A stretch of DNA of 63,631 nt, the filler included. It is 13 parts of 13 records of this genome, joined end to end, with 100 filler letters (N's around TTAATTAATTAA, not from the genome) between each part and the next. Parts side by side here need not be neighbours in the genome. Positions count along the whole stretch, not along the records: positions 20,795 to 24,163 come from SRR7504441_9667; 12 more parts are not named here. One strand, 5' to 3'. Of this stretch, positions 16,763 to 59,314 are shown piece by piece; position 1 is the stretch's first letter, and every line of letters starts with the position of its first letter. The notes under the pieces were generated by a model. The model searched no databases. It worked only from the letters and a program-made list of their open reading frames with translations, and had not been told where the DNA came from. The position numbers were made by a program, and so were the translations under genes.

Positions 16763-17189
16763 GGAGAAGCTGTTGGCTGCACGTTGTCTGAGCAACGTGC
16801 TGAGTTACGGTACCGGTATACCGGTATAGACCTACGTACCGGTACTGTAATTACGTTGCAAAAAAAATAAGCCCGTAGCCCCATACGCTGTGTACTCAAC
16901 AGCGCCTGCCTGACACCGGNNNNNNNNNNNNNNNNNNNNNNNNNNNNNNNNNNNNNNNNNNNNTTAATTAATTAANNNNNNNNNNNNNNNNNNNNNNNNN
17001 NNNNNNNNNNNNNNNNNNNCGGGTTCTCGTGTCTCTGGACACGGTGGCGAGCGCACCAAGGAGTGCTACCAGCTCGGGCTGCAAGTGCAGCACCAGACCG
17101 GTGGGGCTGCCACCGAGGAGGAGCGACGGCGGCTCAAGAAGAAGGCAGCCAAGCTGGCCCAGGACTCGGACAAGAGAGCCCAGCTCATG

Positions 17190-17886: not shown

Positions 17887-19296
17887 CTAAAGACTGTCTC
17901 TAATGCTCGAGGTCTCATGCTGCACTTCCTTACCACGGCCAATGTCTGCAGCCAAAACCGGGTACCCATCCGCCGCAAGCTTTGCCTGGATCTGGTCCAT
18001 ATCAAAGCCCCACTTTTCGGCCACGGTGACATTTGCTGTCCCGGTCTCGAAATCGACTTCAGCGCTCACAACACCACTGGTCGCTTCAAAGAGCTTCTGC
18101 ACATGCACCTGGCACGCCTCGCAGCCCATCCCATCGAGCGAGAGGCTATACTTCACAGTCTGCTCGGTCGGTGGGGCCAATGCAGGCCCGCCCGAGAGAA
18201 GCAGCATTTCAGGAGCCATCATCAAGCCAAGTGTCACAGCGGTCTGCATGAGCAGCGTCAGTGAGCGCCGTCGCGGGCTCGCCCAGGCAGCCCCAAGTCC
18301 GGCCAGTGTGACCACTCGAAGCGGGAGTCGGATCGGCCCGAGTATCTTGTTGAATCCAGCGCACCCGAGTTGGATTACTTCGAGCGAGGCTAGAGCGTTG
18401 ATCGCCAACTGGAGCACACAGCAACTCGATGAGACCAAACCAGCCGCCATCGCTAGCAGCCACGAGTTGCCAGCTGAACCGGACCGCTCAGAGTCGGCAG
18501 TTCCGGCATCGCTTGCGGGTTGCACAGAGACCACCGTGGATTTGAAGTTGGCAGCAGTGAGTGCCGCAGCGCACTTTTCAGCGTCCAACTTGGCTTGAGG
18601 CAGCCCGTTGCGGCACTGGAGCACACCGAGCCCCTCATGGATAGATACGCGCATGCTGAGCATCGCACCGCCCTCGAGCGCTACCGCCTGTACCTTGGAA
18701 GCGCACGAGATGCAGCCCAGGCCGTCGATCTGCAGCCGCACCTCGGTCTGGGCAGCACCGCTCGGCCGGCTGGCCTCCCGATTGTAGAAGTAGAGCATCT
18801 CCGGTAGAAACGCCAGGCAGGCGGCTATCGCGCTCCCGCCCGCAGTGAGCCGCCAGTCGGCCAGCGGGTTGGCGGCCAGGACCGACCAGCAGCCGGCCTG
18901 GAGGATGACCGTGCCCGCAAGGAAGGTGGGCCGAGCCGGGCCGAGATAGGTGTTGAAGCCGGCGCAGCCCAGCGAGAGCATGTTCAGTACCACCTGGAGC
19001 AAGCAACATGCGGACGAGAGCAGCCCGAGCAGGCTCCACCAGGCCAGCGAGGACGTGGCCAGCATCAGCTCGATCTGCAGCCGCTGGAACCAGGGCTCCC
19101 ACAGCTGCCGGCCGTAGCTCGACAGCAGCTGGCCCAGCAGCCACAGACCACCCAGCGACCAGGCGAACGCCCTCCCGAACCCGGGTGAGAACACCAGCCA
19201 GGTCTTGCGAAGATCTTCTCCCATGGTGCGCAGCGCAGTGCGGCGTGCAGCCGACGACGCTGAGTCGTGAGGGTCAAGAACGACTCCAACGACCAT
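17887..19296 (-). CDS. Tandem (MerT-like membrane domain + HMA domain)x2 heavy-metal transport protein
   Basis: Intronless ORF with two repeats of S-S-x-C-C-x-L-Q...GCAGFN..LGP.R (MerT-like TM1), each followed by an HMA domain (IDGLGCISC; LDGMGCEAC..GVVSAEVDFETGTANV). Confidence 0.8.
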   Translation of the reverse strand: MVVGVVLDPHDSASSAARRTALRTMGEDLRKTWLVFSPGFGRAFAWSLGGLWLLGQLLSSYGRQLWEPWFQRLQIELMLATSSLAWWSLLGLLSSACCLLQVVLNMLSLGCAGFNTYLGPARPTFLAGTVILQAGCWSVLAANPLADWRLTAGGSAIAACLAFLPEMLYFYNREASRPSGAAQTEVRLQIDGLGCISCASKVQAVALEGGAMLSMRVSIHEGLGVLQCRNGLPQAKLDAEKCAAALTAANFKSTVVSVQPASDAGTADSERSGSAGNSWLLAMAAGLVSSSCCVLQLAINALASLEVIQLGCAGFNKILGPIRLPLRVVTLAGLGAAWASPRRRSLTLLMQTAVTLGLMMAPEMLLLSGGPALAPPTEQTVKYSLSLDGMGCEACQVHVQKLFEATSGVVSAEVDFETGTANVTVAEKWGFDMDQIQAKLAADGYPVLAADIGRGKEVQHETSSIRDSL

Positions 19297-20694: not shown

Positions 20695-21103
20695 NNNNNN
20701 NNNNNNNNNNNNNNNNNNNNNNNNNNNNNNNNNNNNNNTTAATTAATTAANNNNNNNNNNNNNNNNNNNNNNNNNNNNNNNNNNNNNNNNNNNNGTACTA
20801 GAGTACTCGTAGGATCGAGAATAAGTATTGTTACAATCTGTTGCGACCATCAAGAGAAACCGCATTTAAAGAACCGAAGAACTACGGAACTAGGCCTTCG
20901 ATTCCTTGAAATGCACCCGACACAACCCATTAAAATCTGCGAGGTACCTAATTCAACAATTACAGTCTATGCAGTATGCATGCACATGGTTTATATTGCC
21001 TAATGATGTTGTGTCCGCGTGTACGGATTTGTGGAATCATCGCTAAATTTGTGGATCATGCGCTGCATGGTGCTGATTGGTCCAATCTCAATAGGCTAGA
21101 AAA

Positions 21104-21186
21104 GGCCCTGCAGCCCATTCAGATGCGAGACCCCACCCTCCTCTGGGCAATTTGGTCTCGCATCGTCATAAAGGTTGCACGCGGCC
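21104..21186 (-). promoter_or_regulatory. Eukaryotic SECIS element (type II-like) in 3' UTR
   Basis: Minus strand reads GGCCGCGTGCAACCTTT-ATGA-C-GATGCGAGACC-AAA-TTGCCC-AGAGGA-GGGTGG-GGTCTCGCATC-T-GA-ATGGGCTGCAGGGCC. This gives an AUGA/GA kink-turn core, a perfect 11-bp helix II, unpaired AAA, an apical mini-stem, and a lower helix from the GGCC/TGCA arms. Confidence 0.9.
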
Positions 21187-21192
21187 TAGAAT

Positions 21193-21810
21193 CTAATCAG
21201 GCAGCCTCAGCCGTATTGGGCCCTTGAACTCGGCCTCCGGGTGGAGCACGCGCCCGCGCTGCGTCACCTCCACCCGGCCCTCCCGAGCCAGCGCTCGGGC
21301 CGCTCGCCTCACCGGCTCCATCAGCGCCCTCCAGCCTGTCGGGTCCTGCCGTCGGGCCACTTCACTAGGTCAGCAGCTCTTCCCCTTATCGCGCCCAGCC
21401 AGCAGCTCCAGCGTGGCCCGCTGCAGCGCCGCCGTCCCGTGCTCTCCCGGCTGCCCGGGCGACTCCGGCTGCTCGGCAGGATCGTGCAGGCACTTGCGGT
21501 CGATCGCGCCGTTGCTGCCAAACAGGACACCCTCCGCCTCGAGCAGCGCCCGCTTTCGCTTGAGTTTGGGCTGGTTGGCGCCCCACTGTCCCCCGAACCC
21601 GCCCAGCCGCAGGTCAGAGGCCACTACTCGGTGTCAGGGCACCGCCCCGGGTTGGGTCTGATCGTCGTGTGGGTTACGCCGCATCGCCCCGCCCACTGAT
21701 CGGGCGGAGCCGCCGACGGCGTTGGCCAGCCCGCCGTAGCTGCTCACCTTGCCCGGCGGGATCGCCCGCACCGCCGCATACACCCGCTCAGCGTACGCCG
21801 TCGACGCCAT
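21193..21810 (-). CDS. Putative selenoprotein: O6-alkylguanine-DNA alkyltransferase (AGT/ATL-type) domain fused to DUF3253-like domain, two in-frame UGA (Sec) codons, 205 aa
   Basis: One frame reads MASTAYAERVYAAVRAIPPGKVSSYGGLANAVGGSARSVGGAMRRNP..AVP[TGA 21634-6]HRVVASD..KRALLEAEGV..RDKGKSC[TGA 21370-2]PSEVARRQDPTGWRALMEPVRRAARALAREGRVEVTQRG..KGPIRLRLPD-TAG. A SECIS follows immediately. Confidence 0.88.
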
Positions 21811-21894
21811 CCGCGAAGAGCGGCCGTGGCGGAGGGCGCAAAGTCGCGCTCGAATCCCCGAAAAGTGCCACAAGGCAACGCGCAGCAGGGCGCC

Positions 21895-22620
21895 ATGTCG
21901 CCGGCGCTGCTGTATGGGGGCGGCACCTACGCGGTGCTGCTCGGGTCGTGGCTGGCAGTGTGCCTGTTCTTCGAGGGCTGTGAGCAGTTCGGGCTGCTCC
22001 AGGAGTACAGGATCCAGCCCGGGGCCTCCCCGCCCTCCCCGGCGCTCAAGAGGCGTGCGCTCCGTATGGCCGGAATCAACTGGGCCTGGCTGCCGGTGGC
22101 GCTCGGGCTGGCCAGCCCGGTGCTCCAGGCGATCTTCCCCGTGGACAAGCCCTTCCCGCCGCTTGGGCTGTTCGGGCTCCAGGTAGCTGGCTGCTTCATC
22201 CTGGACGACATCTGCTTCTACGCGTACCACAGGGTGCTGCACGAGAACCCAAAGCTGTACGTCAGATTCCACAAGCCGCACCACGTGTTCACCGCTCCGT
22301 TCGCCTGGACCAGCCACGCTGTCCACCCGGTCGAGATGCTGCTCCAGAGCGTCGGGGCCATGCTGGGGCCGGCGCTGCTCCGGATGCCGCTCCCGGCACT
22401 CTGGTGCTGGCTGGCGGTGCGGCAGCTGCAGGGCGTGCTCGATCATACTGGGCTGGAGCTGCCTGTGGACCCGATCGGGTGGATCCCGGGGGTGGGCGGC
22501 ACCAAGTTTCACGACGACCACCACAAGTACTTCACTGCCAATTACGCCTCGTGCTTCAGCTTCATCGACGACCTGTTTGGGACCAGGTACCAGCCGACCG
22601 GTCCCAAGAAGATGGCCTAG
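21895..22620 (+). CDS. Sterol desaturase/fatty acid hydroxylase superfamily (methylsterol monooxygenase-like)
   Basis: His boxes YHRVLH, HKPHH and FHDDHH; HPVE, DHTG, NYASCFSFIDDLFGT; hydrophobic segments. Confidence 0.9.
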   Translation: MSPALLYGGGTYAVLLGSWLAVCLFFEGCEQFGLLQEYRIQPGASPPSPALKRRALRMAGINWAWLPVALGLASPVLQAIFPVDKPFPPLGLFGLQVAGCFILDDICFYAYHRVLHENPKLYVRFHKPHHVFTAPFAWTSHAVHPVEMLLQSVGAMLGPALLRMPLPALWCWLAVRQLQGVLDHTGLELPVDPIGWIPGVGGTKFHDDHHKYFTANYASCFSFIDDLFGTRYQPTGPKKMA

Positions 22621-24116: not shown

Positions 24117-24263
24117 GGCGCACGCAATAGTAGCTACAGTCCGACAAGCTAGAGACCAACTGCNNNNNNNNNNNNNNNNNNNNNNNNNNNNNNNNNNNNN
24201 NNNNNNNTTAATTAATTAANNNNNNNNNNNNNNNNNNNNNNNNNNNNNNNNNNNNNNNNNNNN

Positions 24264-26524: not shown

Positions 26525-27956
26525 CCTCATGGCTGCTACGCATAAACCACAATAATCAACCACCCTCCAGAGGCGCGCCATGGATAGATTGAGACTACCG
26601 GTAACAGCATGGGTGACTGACTAAATATTAATTAAATAGATAATCTGATTGTAAGAATTAGATTCTTAATGCAGTTCTACAGCAGCAGGCCCGGAACGAC
26701 CCTAGCACAGATGCGTGGATAAGAGACACTAGTCCTTTATCAGCCTTTATCAAACAATCATGCGCGCTCGTGTACTCGTCGCCGTCGTTACGCCGTCGTC
26801 GGGTCGTCGGGGTCAGCCGGTCAGCCTAGGTCAGCCGTACGCGTCAGCCAGTCTGACAGCATGCCGGTCGGCCAGCTGCAGGTGGCCGAGGGCTGATCGT
26901 TGAGGTTCCGTGTCGACCACGGTGGCGGGCACCGTGCTGAGTCGCAACCTAATATCTGGGTTGTCCTGTGGATGTGATCGCTGGAGCGCGATCAAGTAAA
27001 CTCTGAATCGGACTCCATGCTGATAGCACATGCTGACAACGGCGCCCATCGATCCACAAGGCTCTTGTAATGATCCCTGTTCGTAGCAAGTTCTTTCATG
27101 TTAGCGAGCATTCTGTTCTTGTATCTGAAATAGCAGTGGCCCAACGCCAAGAATCCACGTCTCAGATGATTATCAGAATCTGATGATCACTAAGTCTTGT
27201 TGTGCTCTCAGCATGCATATGGCTCTCAGTCGTCTATCAGTCGTCTTTTTCAGAGCAATGTCAGCAATCGTTGTGTGGTCTGGACAACGCATCGGTTAGC
27301 TCGCACGATGTCATGCGACAGCTGGTGCTGCGTCATGTGAACCGACTGGTTCGGATCGTTCGGATGTTTCGATCTATCTAAATAGCTAAATACTGACAGC
27401 GCCGCTGACTGACCGCCACAACGTGCTCTCACAGGAGGCGGCTCACGTCGCCAACATGCTCCGCGAGCTACCGAACGTCGTCGTGCTACGGGAGACTGGA
27501 CCGACNNNNNNNNNNNNNNNNNNNNNNNNNNNNNNNNNNNNNNNNNNNNTTAATTAATTAANNNNNNNNNNNNNNNNNNNNNNNNNNNNNNNNNNNNNNN
27601 NNNNNATTGCACCTGACATACACTCTATCCATGGTTGCCGGCCTGTTGGCCCGACAAGGGGTGACTGGAGCTAGAACCCCACAGCTTTATTACATTATGA
27701 TTACATAGCTTTACAATTGGCTTTAGGTTGGACCCTTTTTAATGCAACTAAATCTATAGGCAAACTAGCCTTCACTCGGTGCTAGCAATTGTTGATCGCG
27801 TAATAATTTGTCCTGTCCGTCTTCACGGACAACACGAGCACAAGAATATGAACAGTGAAATGGCCAAACAAGTTCAAACAAGTCAAAGTCGAGCTGATAG
27901 ATTTGATTACAAGAGCGTCGGCGGCAGCGCCTCTCGGCTGATGGCTCACTCGGGTC

Positions 27957-30730: not shown

Positions 30731-30830
30731 NNNNNNNNNNNNNNNNNNNNNNNNNNNNNNNNNNNNNNNNNNNNTTAATTAATTAANNNNNNNNNNNNNN
30801 NNNNNNNNNNNNNNNNNNNNNNNNNNNNNN

Positions 30831-37551: not shown

Positions 37552-37773
37552 GCGCGATGGCGGATGCGTAAGCGTAACTGTTGCCTAATTGCAAGCTTAC
37601 GCTATACGTAGAATAGAAGTTCTACTATTTTGATTTTTGAATGGTGTTGTTGAGGAGTCAGATCCGTGCCCGTNNNNNNNNNNNNNNNNNNNNNNNNNNN
37701 NNNNNNNNNNNNNNNNNTTAATTAATTAANNNNNNNNNNNNNNNNNNNNNNNNNNNNNNNNNNNNNNNNNNNN

Positions 37774-47508: not shown

Positions 47509-47608
47509 NNNNNNNNNNNNNNNNNNNNNNNNNNNNNNNNNNNNNNNNNNNNTTAATTAATTAANNNNNNNNNNNNNNNNNNNNNNNNNNNNNNNNNNNN
47601 NNNNNNNN

Positions 47609-55339: not shown

Positions 55340-55890
55340 TGGTGCAAATTACTATCCCTATCATCCGTTCCCGTACATATTGGCATGCAAAGCTTAGATC
55401 TCAAACGACCAATTCATTTCTTGAGATACGTTGACACTTTTGGTAACTATTAGGGGCGCTAGATTGTGCGAGTATCTACTACGAAGGGTCATGGCCAGTC
55501 CCCAAGCCCCCAGCCCCCATCAGCGCAGTGAAGCTCAGATCCATCAAATGTTTTTTGTATACGTAAATACGTGCAAATGCATCAGTATTCAGCCATTGAC
55601 GATGTCCCCCTACTGTTCAGAGTGATGCACGTACGCTTCTTCAGTCAAGTCTCCTCGGTTGCTGATCCGCGCGCGAGCACCTCGGGCNNNNNNNNNNNNN
55701 NNNNNNNNNNNNNNNNNNNNNNNNNNNNNNNTTAATTAATTAANNNNNNNNNNNNNNNNNNNNNNNNNNNNNNNNNNNNNNNNNNNNAGTGTTTGCTAGC
55801 ATGCAAGTGAGCATGCATGTGCATCAGTAGTGCATCAGCGTGTTCATTGATTTTAAAATTATTTCTTTATGCATAAACCTCTGAATTTTA

Positions 55891-59214: not shown

Positions 59215-59314
59215 NNNNNNNNNNNNNNNNNNNNNNNNNNNNNNNNNNNNNNNNNNNNTTAATTAATTAANNNNNNNNNNNNNNNNNNNNNNNNNNNNNN
59301 NNNNNNNNNNNNNN

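What the first reader, a model, noticed from the sequence alone, without database searches (positions are those of the whole stretch)
21193..21810. Candidate novel eukaryotic selenoprotein: DNA alkyltransferase with Sec at the catalytic site, fused to a second Sec-bearing domain
Seen in sequence: one 205-codon frame with two in-frame TGAs, family-like sequence continuing past both, a true TAG stop, and a SECIS hairpin just downstream. Established: O6-alkylguanine-DNA alkyltransferases (MGMT/Ogt) use the PCHRV Cys as alkyl acceptor, and inactive ATL proteins have PWHRV. Here the motif is P-TGA-HRV, with the HTH Tyr (SSYG), Arg finger (SARSVG), Asn hinge (RNP) and Glu (LEAEG) retained. The domain is ATL-sized, without the N-terminal Ogt domain. 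Inference: this is a selenocysteine alkyltransferase. I do not know this family as a standard eukaryotic selenoprotein, and spending selenium on a normally single-turnover repair protein would be surprising. Standard gene callers would split or discard it.
Basis: partly seen in the sequence, partly recalled or inferred. Interest (0 to 1): 0.95.

Follow-up and report, generated by a model that had tools for sequence, protein, structure and literature searches.

The report
Two-selenocysteine DNA alkyltransferase fusion gene
This is a real, conserved gene of marine microbial eukaryotes that puts the rare amino acid selenocysteine at the active site of a DNA-alkylation repair domain and again at the key cysteine position of a fused, uncharacterised DNA-binding-type domain; the repair-domain selenoprotein family is already catalogued, but the second selenium-bearing domain appears undescribed.

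Summary
On the minus strand, 21810-21193 is one 205-codon frame with in-frame TGAs at codons 59 and 147 and a TAG stop. A canonical eukaryotic SECIS-like hairpin starts 16 nt downstream.

Residues 7-95 match Pfam PF01035, the MGMT/AGT DNA-binding and active-site domain, with U in the P-C-HRV position. Residues 128-204 match PF11625 (DUF3253, PDB 2ns0), with U at its invariant Cys (CPSE).

Six metagenome loci (four distinct sequences, about 40-50% identical) carry the same domain order and both TGAs. Of the other 74 relatives returned, 70 have Cys, 4 gave no motif match, and none has DUF3253. Independent marine DNA contigs keep each TGA and one RNA-library contig keeps TGA147; strain differences are mostly synonymous.

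The selenoprotein reading is therefore well supported. The "novel family" claim is not. Sec-containing methylated-DNA-protein-cysteine methyltransferase is a listed algal selenoprotein family ("MDP", Jiang 2020) and a listed prokaryotic one. The DUF3253 fusion with a second Sec appears in no text I could search.

Most likely mechanism: Sec59 is the alkyl acceptor, and DUF3253 is a winged-helix partner whose Sec sits at a helix N-cap. Its role is inferred only.

The parts
21193..21810 (-). Whole coding sequence: 205 sense codons, single exon, including two UGA-Sec codons, ending in TAG
   Evidence: Translation with TGA=U; coordinates checked
21808..21810 (-). Start codon ATG. The frame stays open upstream, but that stretch is antisense to the divergent FA_hydroxylase gene at 21895-22620(+).
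   Evidence: the PF01035 match begins at residue 7
21526..21792 (-). MGMT/AGT C-terminal (DNA-binding and active-site) domain, residues 7-95. No N-terminal AGT domain is present.
   Evidence: Pfam PF01035 E 2.1e-24; matches to solved AGT/OGT chains; Foldseek matches to ATL and AGT structures
21634..21636 (-). UGA codon 59: Sec at the alkyl-acceptor position (P-U-HRV)
   Evidence: Aligns with the invariant Cys of PCHRV in 12 of 12 aligned homologues and in solved OGT/MGMT chains. TGA is conserved in L001-L005 and L068. Unchanged in DNA contig X2.
21430..21525 (-). Inter-domain linker, residues 96-127. Lowest model confidence; holds all 3 non-synonymous strain differences.
21199..21429 (-). DUF3253 domain, residues 128-204, with a winged-helix-like fold
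   Evidence: Pfam PF11625 E 6.8e-25; PDB 2ns0_A E 3.7e-15; Foldseek 2ns0 TM(target) 0.90, rmsd 1.3
21370..21372 (-). UGA codon 147: Sec at the invariant Cys of the DUF3253 'CPSE' motif, immediately before helix 148-155 of the model
   Evidence: Aligns with Cys in 2ns0 and with the invariant Cys in alignments A4/A5. TGA is conserved in all 6 orthologous loci. Unchanged in DNA contig X1 and polyA-library RNA contig X7. Secondary structure.
21193..21195 (-). TAG stop codon
21107..21177 (-). SECIS element in the 3' UTR (form 2, with an extra apical mini-stem). AUGA 21169-21166, helix arms 21164-21154 and 21132-21122, AAA 21153-21151, UGAA 21121-21118.
   Evidence: Rfam RF00031 24.4 bits, below gathering 35; fold z -3.4; unique strict-pattern hit in the window; coordinates

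Best explanation
This is a genuine nuclear selenoprotein gene of a marine microbial eukaryote. One mRNA carries two UGA codons, both decoded as selenocysteine through a single 3'-UTR SECIS.

The N-terminal half is a single-domain O6-alkylguanine-DNA alkyltransferase (MGMT/AGT-type, ATL-sized). Sec59 replaces the acceptor Cys. It most likely flips out an alkylated base and takes the alkyl group irreversibly onto selenium. The low pKa of the selenol would give a faster acceptor that depends less on an activating residue network.

The C-terminal half is a DUF3253 winged-helix-type domain. Its one invariant Cys, at the N-cap of helix 2, is also replaced by Sec. It most likely acts as an auxiliary DNA-binding domain with its own reactive nucleophile, coupled functionally to the alkyltransferase.

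What is shown: gene anatomy, domain identities, both Sec positions, SECIS, conservation. What is inferred: alkyl transfer to Sec59, and any chemistry at Sec147.
For: (1) Anatomy is established.

(2) Both TGAs align with Cys in homologues. The PCHRV Cys is invariant in alignment A2 (13 sequences) and in solved OGT/MGMT chains. The CPSE Cys is invariant in A4 (15 sequences) and A5 (8 sequences) and present in 2ns0.

(3) Orthologues: 80 metagenome loci were kept. Six of them (L001/L002, L003, L004/L005, L068; four distinct sequences besides the window) have U at the catalytic site, 70 have C, and 4 gave no motif match. The DUF3253 motif occurs only in those same 6 loci, always with U and always downstream of the MGMT domain. 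Both Pfam domains score E 1e-20 to 1e-26 in the three orthologue translations submitted to Pfam, at 45-49% identity to the window protein.

(4) SECIS: my strict pattern gives exactly 1 hit in the window (both strands). It gives 1 hit each in L001, L002 and L068, all just 3' of the stop on the gene strand. Background is 14 hits in 1.89 Mb. Rfam SECIS_1 scores are 24.4, 24.6 and 19.3 bits.

(5) Reads: independent marine DNA contigs cover TGA59 (X2) and TGA147 (X1) unchanged, and a polyA-library RNA contig (X7) covers TGA147 unchanged. Of 10 strain differences inside the CDS, 7 are synonymous. The 3 non-synonymous ones all lie in the linker.

(6) Catalytic-network columns Y25, R37, N46, H60 and R61 are invariant, and E93 is nearly invariant, in A2.

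(7) An engineered human AGT with Sec at position 145 protects E. coli from MNNG and tolerates loss of Asn137 (PMC4150793, abstract and passages).

(8) The model has pLDDT 92.3. Sec147 directly precedes helix 148-155. The DUF3253 half superposes on 2ns0.

(9) A Cys/Cys protein with the two domains in the opposite order exists (P0003). This argues for functional coupling of the two domains.
Against: No SECIS reaches Rfam's gathering score of 35 bits. For L003 and L004/L005 I found only bulged, hand-picked candidates. Rfam found none in L003 and none in the pooled scan of the six loci, and my pattern found none there.

The Sec machinery could not be checked. No genome is held and the window has no tRNA gene.

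The RNA evidence is one short contig in a polyA library, which does not prove transcription or translation.

The protein lacks the AGT N-terminal domain. From recall, the isolated C-terminal domain of human AGT is inactive on its own, so alkyl-transfer activity is not guaranteed.

There is a 5-residue insertion just before the active site compared with relatives.

The tree does not resolve the Sec forms as one clade.

No experiment bears on DUF3253 function.
Confidence: 0.75

Rival explanations
1. It is a selenoprotein but not a suicide repair enzyme. The two Sec residues (with Cys146 next to Sec147) form a redox couple, and the protein is a redox-regulated or oxidoreductase-type DNA-binding factor built from an MGMT-fold and a winged-helix domain.
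For: Most known selenoproteins are thiol-oxidoreductase-like (PMC2398784 passage). C-U or C-C pairs occur at the DUF3253 site in the window, L003, L004 and some bacterial homologues. Spending selenium on a single-turnover protein is costly.
Against: The residue before Sec147 is Ala in L001/L002 and Val in L068, so the C-U pair is not conserved. The full AGT catalytic and DNA-binding signature is kept. Neither domain has a Trx-like fold or a CxxC/UxxC motif.
Confidence: 0.1
2. UGA59 is not Sec but is read as Trp or read through. That would give a PWHRV alkyltransferase-like (ATL) damage sensor that hands lesions to excision repair.
For: The protein is ATL-sized and lacks the N-terminal domain. 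Its best structural matches for this half include Vibrio and S. pombe ATL (2kif, 3gva). Trp is a common near-cognate reading of UGA (recalled).
Against: A SECIS sits in the 3' UTR here and in the orthologues. The second UGA aligns with an invariant Cys, not Trp. The closest relatives all have Cys, not Trp (70 of 80 loci). TGG is used normally, and ORFs of 1068-1410 codons contain no TGA, so TGA is not a general sense codon.
Confidence: 0.04
3. It is a pseudogene or an assembly/sequencing error: a once Cys-coding gene with two chance nonsense mutations.
For: The window is stitched from short metagenome-bin contigs. Gene callers would truncate the gene.
Against: Both TGAs recur at the homologous codons in four other divergent sequences and in independent DNA and RNA contigs. 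Substitutions are mostly synonymous. A SECIS is present.
Confidence: 0.02

Closest known systems
[quoted passage not shown] 2020, BMC Genomics (PMC7539508)
   Same: A eukaryotic (algal) SECIS-dependent selenoprotein with the PF01035-type domain, linked by the authors to DNA repair. Cys and other-residue homologues also exist (passages).
   Different: The text I could read mentions no second Sec, no DUF3253 and no fusion for MDP (sections 5 and 11). The figures, supplement and the SPDB database, which might show it, were not available. I cannot say whether published MDP entries are this same two-domain protein.
[quoted passage not shown]
   Same: Sec in a PF01035 protein, listed with one Sec (table rows seen).
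   Different: Bacterial Sec-decoding system (bacterial-type SECIS expected from general knowledge, not examined here). One Sec only, with no DUF3253 noted. I did not examine these sequences.
Canonical AGT/MGMT/Ogt/Ada-C (e.g. PDB 1eh6, 1sfe, 4bhb, 1mgt)
   Same: Same C-terminal fold and signature: the helix-turn-helix Tyr, Arg finger, Asn hinge, P-[C/U]-HRV and Glu.
   Different: Sec instead of Cys. No N-terminal domain (PF02870 not hit). A 5-residue insertion before the active site. A C-terminal DUF3253 domain.
Alkyltransferase-like proteins (S. pombe Atl1 3gva/3gx4; Vibrio 2kif)
   Same: Single-domain size. Among the top structural matches for residues 1-110.
   Different: ATLs lack the nucleophile (Trp or Ala at that position, recalled). 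Here a stronger nucleophile is present.
DUF3253 (PF11625; PDB 2ns0, Rhodococcus RHA04536) and bacterial DUF2256-DUF3253 proteins
   Same: Same domain, 47% identity to 2ns0 over 81 aligned columns, TM(target) 0.90. The invariant CPSE position is occupied.
   Different: Sec instead of Cys. Fused to MGMT rather than to the DUF2256 zinc-ribbon-like region. Eukaryotic. The function of the family is unknown, and the terms DUF3253, PF11625, IPR021660 and RHA04536 occur in 0 papers.
Engineered human AGT-U145 (Haruna et al. 2014, PMC4150793)
   Same: Sec at the AGT acceptor position gives a functional repair protein in vivo (abstract and passages).
   Different: Artificial (UAG-encoded, EF-Tu-delivered), full-length two-domain human AGT.

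Membership tests
Eukaryotic selenoprotein | In-frame UGA at a position where homologues have Cys | tested here: met
   U59 aligns with the PCHRV Cys. U147 aligns with the CPSE Cys.
Eukaryotic selenoprotein | SECIS element (AUGA...AA...GA kink-turn hairpin) in the 3' UTR | tested here: met
   All core motifs are present. It is a unique strict-pattern hit. However, Rfam gives 24.4 bits, below the gathering score of 35. SECISearch3 is not available.
Eukaryotic selenoprotein | UGA conserved, or alternating with Cys codons, in orthologues, with sequence conservation on both sides | tested here: met
   6 of 6 two-domain loci keep both TGAs. 70 single-domain relatives have TGY.
Eukaryotic selenoprotein | Sec machinery in the genome (tRNA-Sec, EEFSEC, SBP2, SEPSECS, PSTK, SPS) | not testable with these tools
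   No genome is held. No tRNA in the window.
Eukaryotic selenoprotein | Selenium actually incorporated (75Se or mass spectrometry) | not testable with these tools
   Experimental.
AGT/MGMT (PF01035) alkyltransferase | PF01035 domain above the curated cut-off | tested here: met
   85.6 bits against a cut-off of 27.
AGT/MGMT (PF01035) alkyltransferase | Nucleophile in P-C-H-R-V plus Tyr, Arg finger, Asn hinge and Glu | tested here: met
   U59 replaces Cys. Y25, R37, N46, H60 and R61 are invariant and E93 nearly invariant in A2. The mapping to human numbering is recalled for Tyr114 and Arg128; C145, N137, H146 and E172 appear.
AGT/MGMT (PF01035) alkyltransferase | N-terminal AGT domain (PF02870) | tested here: not met
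   No hit at E<=1. The nearest Cys relatives also lack it (Pfam column).
AGT/MGMT (PF01035) alkyltransferase | Stoichiometric alkyl transfer from O6-alkylguanine | not testable with these tools
   Biochemical assay needed.
ATL (alkyltransferase-like) | Acceptor Cys replaced by a non-nucleophile (Trp/Ala) | tested here: not met
   The codon is TGA with a SECIS. Relatives have Cys.
DUF3253 (PF11625) | Domain match above the cut-off and the fold of 2ns0 | tested here: met
   87.5 bits against a cut-off of 22.1. 2ns0 E 3.7e-15. TM(target) 0.90.
DUF3253 (PF11625) | Invariant Cys of the CPS[E/D] motif | tested here: met
   The position is occupied by U147.
Algal MDP selenoprotein family (Jiang 2020) | Sec-containing methylated-DNA-protein-cysteine methyltransferase homologue in an alga, with a SECIS | tested here: inconclusive
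   The features fit, but no MDP sequence was available for comparison (supplements and database closed). The host lineage of the window is also unresolved.

The most novel reading that the evidence does not exclude
DUF3253 is a second catalytic domain whose helix-N-cap Cys/Sec is a nucleophile in its own right. One possibility is that the protein is an Ada-like dual acceptor, with Sec59 taking O6-alkylguanine damage and Sec147 taking another alkyl lesion such as a backbone methylphosphotriester. The other is that Sec147 takes the alkyl group (or resolves the Se-alkyl adduct) from Sec59. That would turn a classically single-turnover suicide protein into one that can be reset. Either reading would also assign a first function to the widespread bacterial DUF3253 and DUF2256-DUF3253 proteins.
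Probability: 0.15. Interest if true: 0.85.

Novelty: new variant of a known kind. Interest (0 to 1): 0.55.

Why it matters
AGT/MGMT is the textbook suicide repair protein. A natural version that spends selenium on the acceptor site, conserved across several marine eukaryotes, shows that faster or more pH-independent alkyl capture is under selection in the sea.

The parallel Cys-to-Sec replacement in the fused DUF3253 domain is a strong natural pointer. It marks that domain's single invariant Cys as a reactive, functionally central nucleophile, and it ties the domain to DNA alkylation repair. This gives a testable handle on a domain of unknown function that is widespread in bacteria.

Practically, standard gene callers split or drop this gene. 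Marine eukaryote MAG annotations therefore under-report it.

Tried and rejected
(1) Rfam at gathering thresholds on the window gave 0 matches. The pooled E<=10 scan of L001-L005 and L068 gave no SECIS_1 hit, and a small scan of the L003 3' region gave none. The L003 and L004 SECIS candidates are hand-picked. Their folds are not better than shuffles (z -1.0 and +0.4).

(2) The search for related loci with the single protein on metagenome contigs found no relative among 215 pattern matches. The alignment-based rerun succeeded.

(3) The viral-contig scan returned 2 single-domain relatives and no two-domain protein.

(4) The shorter-protein search returned 37 hits, none from a named alga.

(5) Host identification through the DExH helicase ORF gave best named hits of only 46% (Micromonas pusilla) and 44% (Pedinophyceae). 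The lineage is unresolved. That ORF also lies on a different contig of the bin.

(6) The MGMT-domain tree (57 rows, 107 columns) did not resolve whether the Sec forms are one clade. L001 and L003 group with one Cys protein (98/88 support), and the window and L004 fall elsewhere without support. L068 was left out.

(7) Bacterial DUF2256-DUF3253 neighbourhoods: the largest blastp cluster of neighbours covers only 6 of 74 loci analysed. A looser tblastn finds a photolyase-family gene within 5 kb in 14 of 80 loci. This is a hint, not an operon.

Model coordinates are not exposed, so the Sec59-Sec147 distance is unknown.

(10) The Aureococcus selenoproteome papers (Gobler 2011 and 2013) are not held.

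(11) In one search, three short partial matches have unlike flanks and were not used: X1 record 2 (35 nt), X8 record 7 (37 nt) and X8 record 8 (47 nt). The X8 contig over 21000-21131 shows only that part of the 3' region occurs in a polyA library. It overlaps the SECIS by only 25 nt (its 3'-most part) and does not reach the CDS.

Full report
WHAT IS THERE

The feature lies on the minus strand. The coding sequence runs from ATG 21810-21808 through 205 sense codons to TAG 21195-21193. In-frame TGAs lie at codon 59 (21636-21634) and codon 147 (21372-21370).

Pfam finds two domains, each spanning one TGA:
- PF01035, the DNA-binding and active-site domain of O6-methylguanine-DNA methyltransferases: residues 7-95, E 2.1e-24.
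- PF11625 (DUF3253): residues 128-204, E 6.8e-25.

The AGT N-terminal domain is absent.

The frame stays open upstream of the ATG. That stretch is antisense to a divergent gene at 21895-22620(+) with a clear FA_hydroxylase domain (E 2.7e-28), so ATG 21810 is the sensible start.

THE SECIS

Sixteen nucleotides past the stop lies a hairpin (21177-21107, minus strand). It has AUGA, an 11-bp helix, an AAA triplet, an apical mini-stem and UGAA.
- Rfam's SECIS_1 model scores it 24.4 bits. This is below the curated 35 bits, so it is not a formal Rfam call.
- It is the only SECIS_1 match in an E<=10 scan of the whole window.
- It folds better than 200 of 200 shuffles (z -3.4).
- A strict pattern of my own (ATGA, 9-13 nt, AA/CC, at least 8 paired positions, GA) hits it and nothing else on either strand of the 63.6-kb window. 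Background is 14 hits in 1.89 Mb of unrelated loci.

ARE THE TGAs SELENOCYSTEINE?

Both codons align with Cys in homologues.
- Codon 59 aligns with the acceptor Cys of PCHRV in solved OGT/MGMT chains. It is in an invariant column of a 13-sequence alignment of the closest relatives.
- Codon 147 aligns with the Cys of the CPS[E/D] motif in PDB 2ns0 (E 3.7e-15). That Cys is invariant in DUF3253 alignments of 15 and 8 sequences.

The decisive evidence is comparative.
- Six loci encode the same two-domain protein in the same order, with TGA at both homologous codons. These are L001/L002 (6 differences in 690 nt), L003, L004/L005 (identical translations of the matched region) and L068.
- L068 has a frame change or small intron in the linker.
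- The orthologues are 45-49% identical to the window protein. Both Pfam domains score 1e-20 to 1e-26 in the three orthologue translations submitted to Pfam (L001, L003, L004/L005).
- Of the other 74 loci, 70 have PCHRV with Cys and 4 gave no motif match. None has the DUF3253 motif.

In this sample, Sec at the active site and the DUF3253 fusion therefore go together completely.

SECIS-like elements follow the stop in three orthologous loci:
- L001: Rfam 24.6 bits, E 0.0068 in 200 nt.
- L002: strict pattern hit.
- L068: 19.3 bits.

For L003 and L004/L005 I found only bulged candidates by eye, which no program supported.

READS

Logan contigs from four public marine runs were laid on 21000-21900.
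- A DNA contig (X2) covers 21556-21706 with TGA59 unchanged.
- A DNA contig (X1) covers 21176-21433 with TGA147 unchanged.
- A contig from a polyA metatranscriptome (X7) covers 21355-21601 with TGA147 unchanged and 9 other differences.

All of these come from slightly different strains. Of the 10 differences inside the CDS, 7 are synonymous third-position changes, including codons downstream of each TGA. The 3 non-synonymous ones all lie in the inter-domain linker. This is the signature of a translated frame under purifying selection. The RNA contig is consistent with expression but does not prove it.

TGA is not a general sense codon here. ORFs of 1068-1410 codons lack it, and TGG is used normally for Trp.

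CONTEXT

The window is not one piece of chromosome. Twelve N44-TTAATTAATTAA-N44 six-frame-stop spacers show that it is a string of short contigs from a bin. The gene's real contig is 20795-24163, and only the FA_hydroxylase gene and one unassigned ORF are true neighbours.

Other contigs in the window carry eukaryotic genes: V-ATPase subunit a, a DExH helicase and a RING finger. The helicase's best named relatives are only 46% (Micromonas pusilla) and 44% (Pedinophyceae) identical, so the lineage is unresolved. No whole genome is held, so the Sec machinery could not be checked.

THE TWO DOMAINS

The MGMT half belongs to a group of single-domain, Cys-containing proteins with a GGFxGxWG segment. 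Many of them look eukaryotic.

The AlphaFold2 model is confident (mean pLDDT 92.3, pTM 0.68). Its N-terminal half matches ATL and AGT structures. Its C-terminal half matches 2ns0 (TM 0.90, rmsd 1.3) and, weakly, winged-helix proteins. In the model, Sec147 sits immediately before helix 148-155, at a helix N-cap, which is a classic site for an activated nucleophile.

Among 1.84 billion representative proteins, the only full-length protein with both domains among the 150 best-scoring hits listed is P0003. It has Cys at both sites and the domains in the opposite order. Fusion in both orders argues that the two domains work together.

In bacteria, DUF3253 is usually fused to DUF2256. A photolyase-family gene lies within 5 kb in 14 of 80 such loci from several phyla. 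This is a modest hint of a DNA-damage context and not an operon.

MECHANISM

Best supported: Sec59 is the alkyl acceptor of a stoichiometric O6-alkylguanine repair reaction. The DNA-binding Tyr and Arg, the Asn hinge, and the His and Glu are all conserved. An engineered human AGT with Sec at the acceptor position is functional in vivo and no longer needs Asn137 (PMC4150793; abstract and passages).

The DUF3253 half most likely supplies extra DNA binding and a second reactive selenol. What that selenol does is inference.

Rivals considered:
- A redox couple.
- Trp insertion giving an ATL-like sensor.
- A pseudogene.

COMPARISON WITH WHAT IS KNOWN

The claim of a new selenoprotein family fails.
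- Jiang et al. [quoted passage not shown]
- Prokaryotic Sec forms of pfam01035 are tabulated in PMC1976440, PMC2398784 and PMC13188914 (passages).

None of the text I could read mentions a second Sec, DUF3253 or a fusion for this family. The terms DUF3253, PF11625, IPR021660 and RHA04536 occur in 0 papers of the library. Searches combining selenocysteine or selenoproteome with alkyltransferase or O6-methylguanine returned only the engineering paper.

The figures, supplements and database of Jiang et al., and the Aureococcus papers, were not available. They may already show this architecture.

VERDICT

This is a real, conserved, two-Sec selenoprotein. I rate it a new variant of a known kind: MDP plus a Sec-bearing DUF3253 domain. 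Interest is moderate (0.55). It would be higher if DUF3253 proves to be a second catalytic acceptor or a resetting partner.

Noticed in passing
window 6266-6365, 9965-10064, 13146-13245, 16920-17019, 20695-20794, 24164-24263, 27506-27605, 30731-30830, 37674-37773, 47509-47608, 55688-55787, 59215-59314: Twelve identical spacers, N44-TTAATTAATTAA-N44 (six-frame stop linkers). The window is a concatenation of short contigs of a metagenome bin, so gene order across spacers is meaningless. The finding's true contig is 20795-24163.
   Followed up: yes
L001:3-443 and L002:347-1108: In the L001/L002 orthologue, a GNAT-like (my reading, not tested with Pfam) ORF runs in the same frame directly upstream. 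It is separated from the MGMT domain by a single TGA and 24 codons with no in-frame ATG. This could be a third Sec codon, a larger fusion, an intron, or a start I could not place.
   Followed up: partly
L068:3-575: This orthologue has the MGMT half (N-U-HRV) and the DUF3253 half (V-U-PSE) in different frames. This indicates either a small intron in the linker or an assembly indel.
   Followed up: partly
P0003 (JGI metagenome protein, 252 aa): The only other two-domain protein found has DUF3253 first and MGMT second. It has Cys at both key positions and a basic C-terminal tail.
   Followed up: partly
L081-L160 (bacterial DUF2256-DUF3253 loci), e.g. L099:5548-6780: A photolyase-family gene (Pfam FAD_binding_7) lies within 5 kb of the DUF2256-DUF3253 gene in 14 of 80 loci, often immediately downstream on the same strand. 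The loci span Actinomycetota, Planctomycetota, Gammaproteobacteria and Rubrivirga. A YjbR-family gene recurs in 7 mostly acidobacterial loci (Acidobacteriaceae, Granulicella and relatives).
   Followed up: partly
window 17887-19296 (-), on a different contig of the bin: A 469-aa ORF with a C-terminal HMA heavy-metal domain (E 1.2e-12). It has two copies of a Cys-rich membrane-like motif (..CC.LQ.. then LGCAGFN) and a second GxxCxxC-like site. It looks like a metal-handling membrane protein.
   Followed up: no
L004:1600-1602 / L005: In this orthologue the ORF appears to end at a third TGA, just after the DUF3253 domain. UGA would then serve as both Sec codon and terminator in one mRNA. Its SECIS candidate (L004 about 1637-1697) lacks the usual AA.
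   Followed up: partly
window 21811-21894: Only 84 bp separate the start codons of the selenoprotein gene (-) and the divergent FA_hydroxylase gene (+). This implies a very compact bidirectional promoter region.
   Followed up: no
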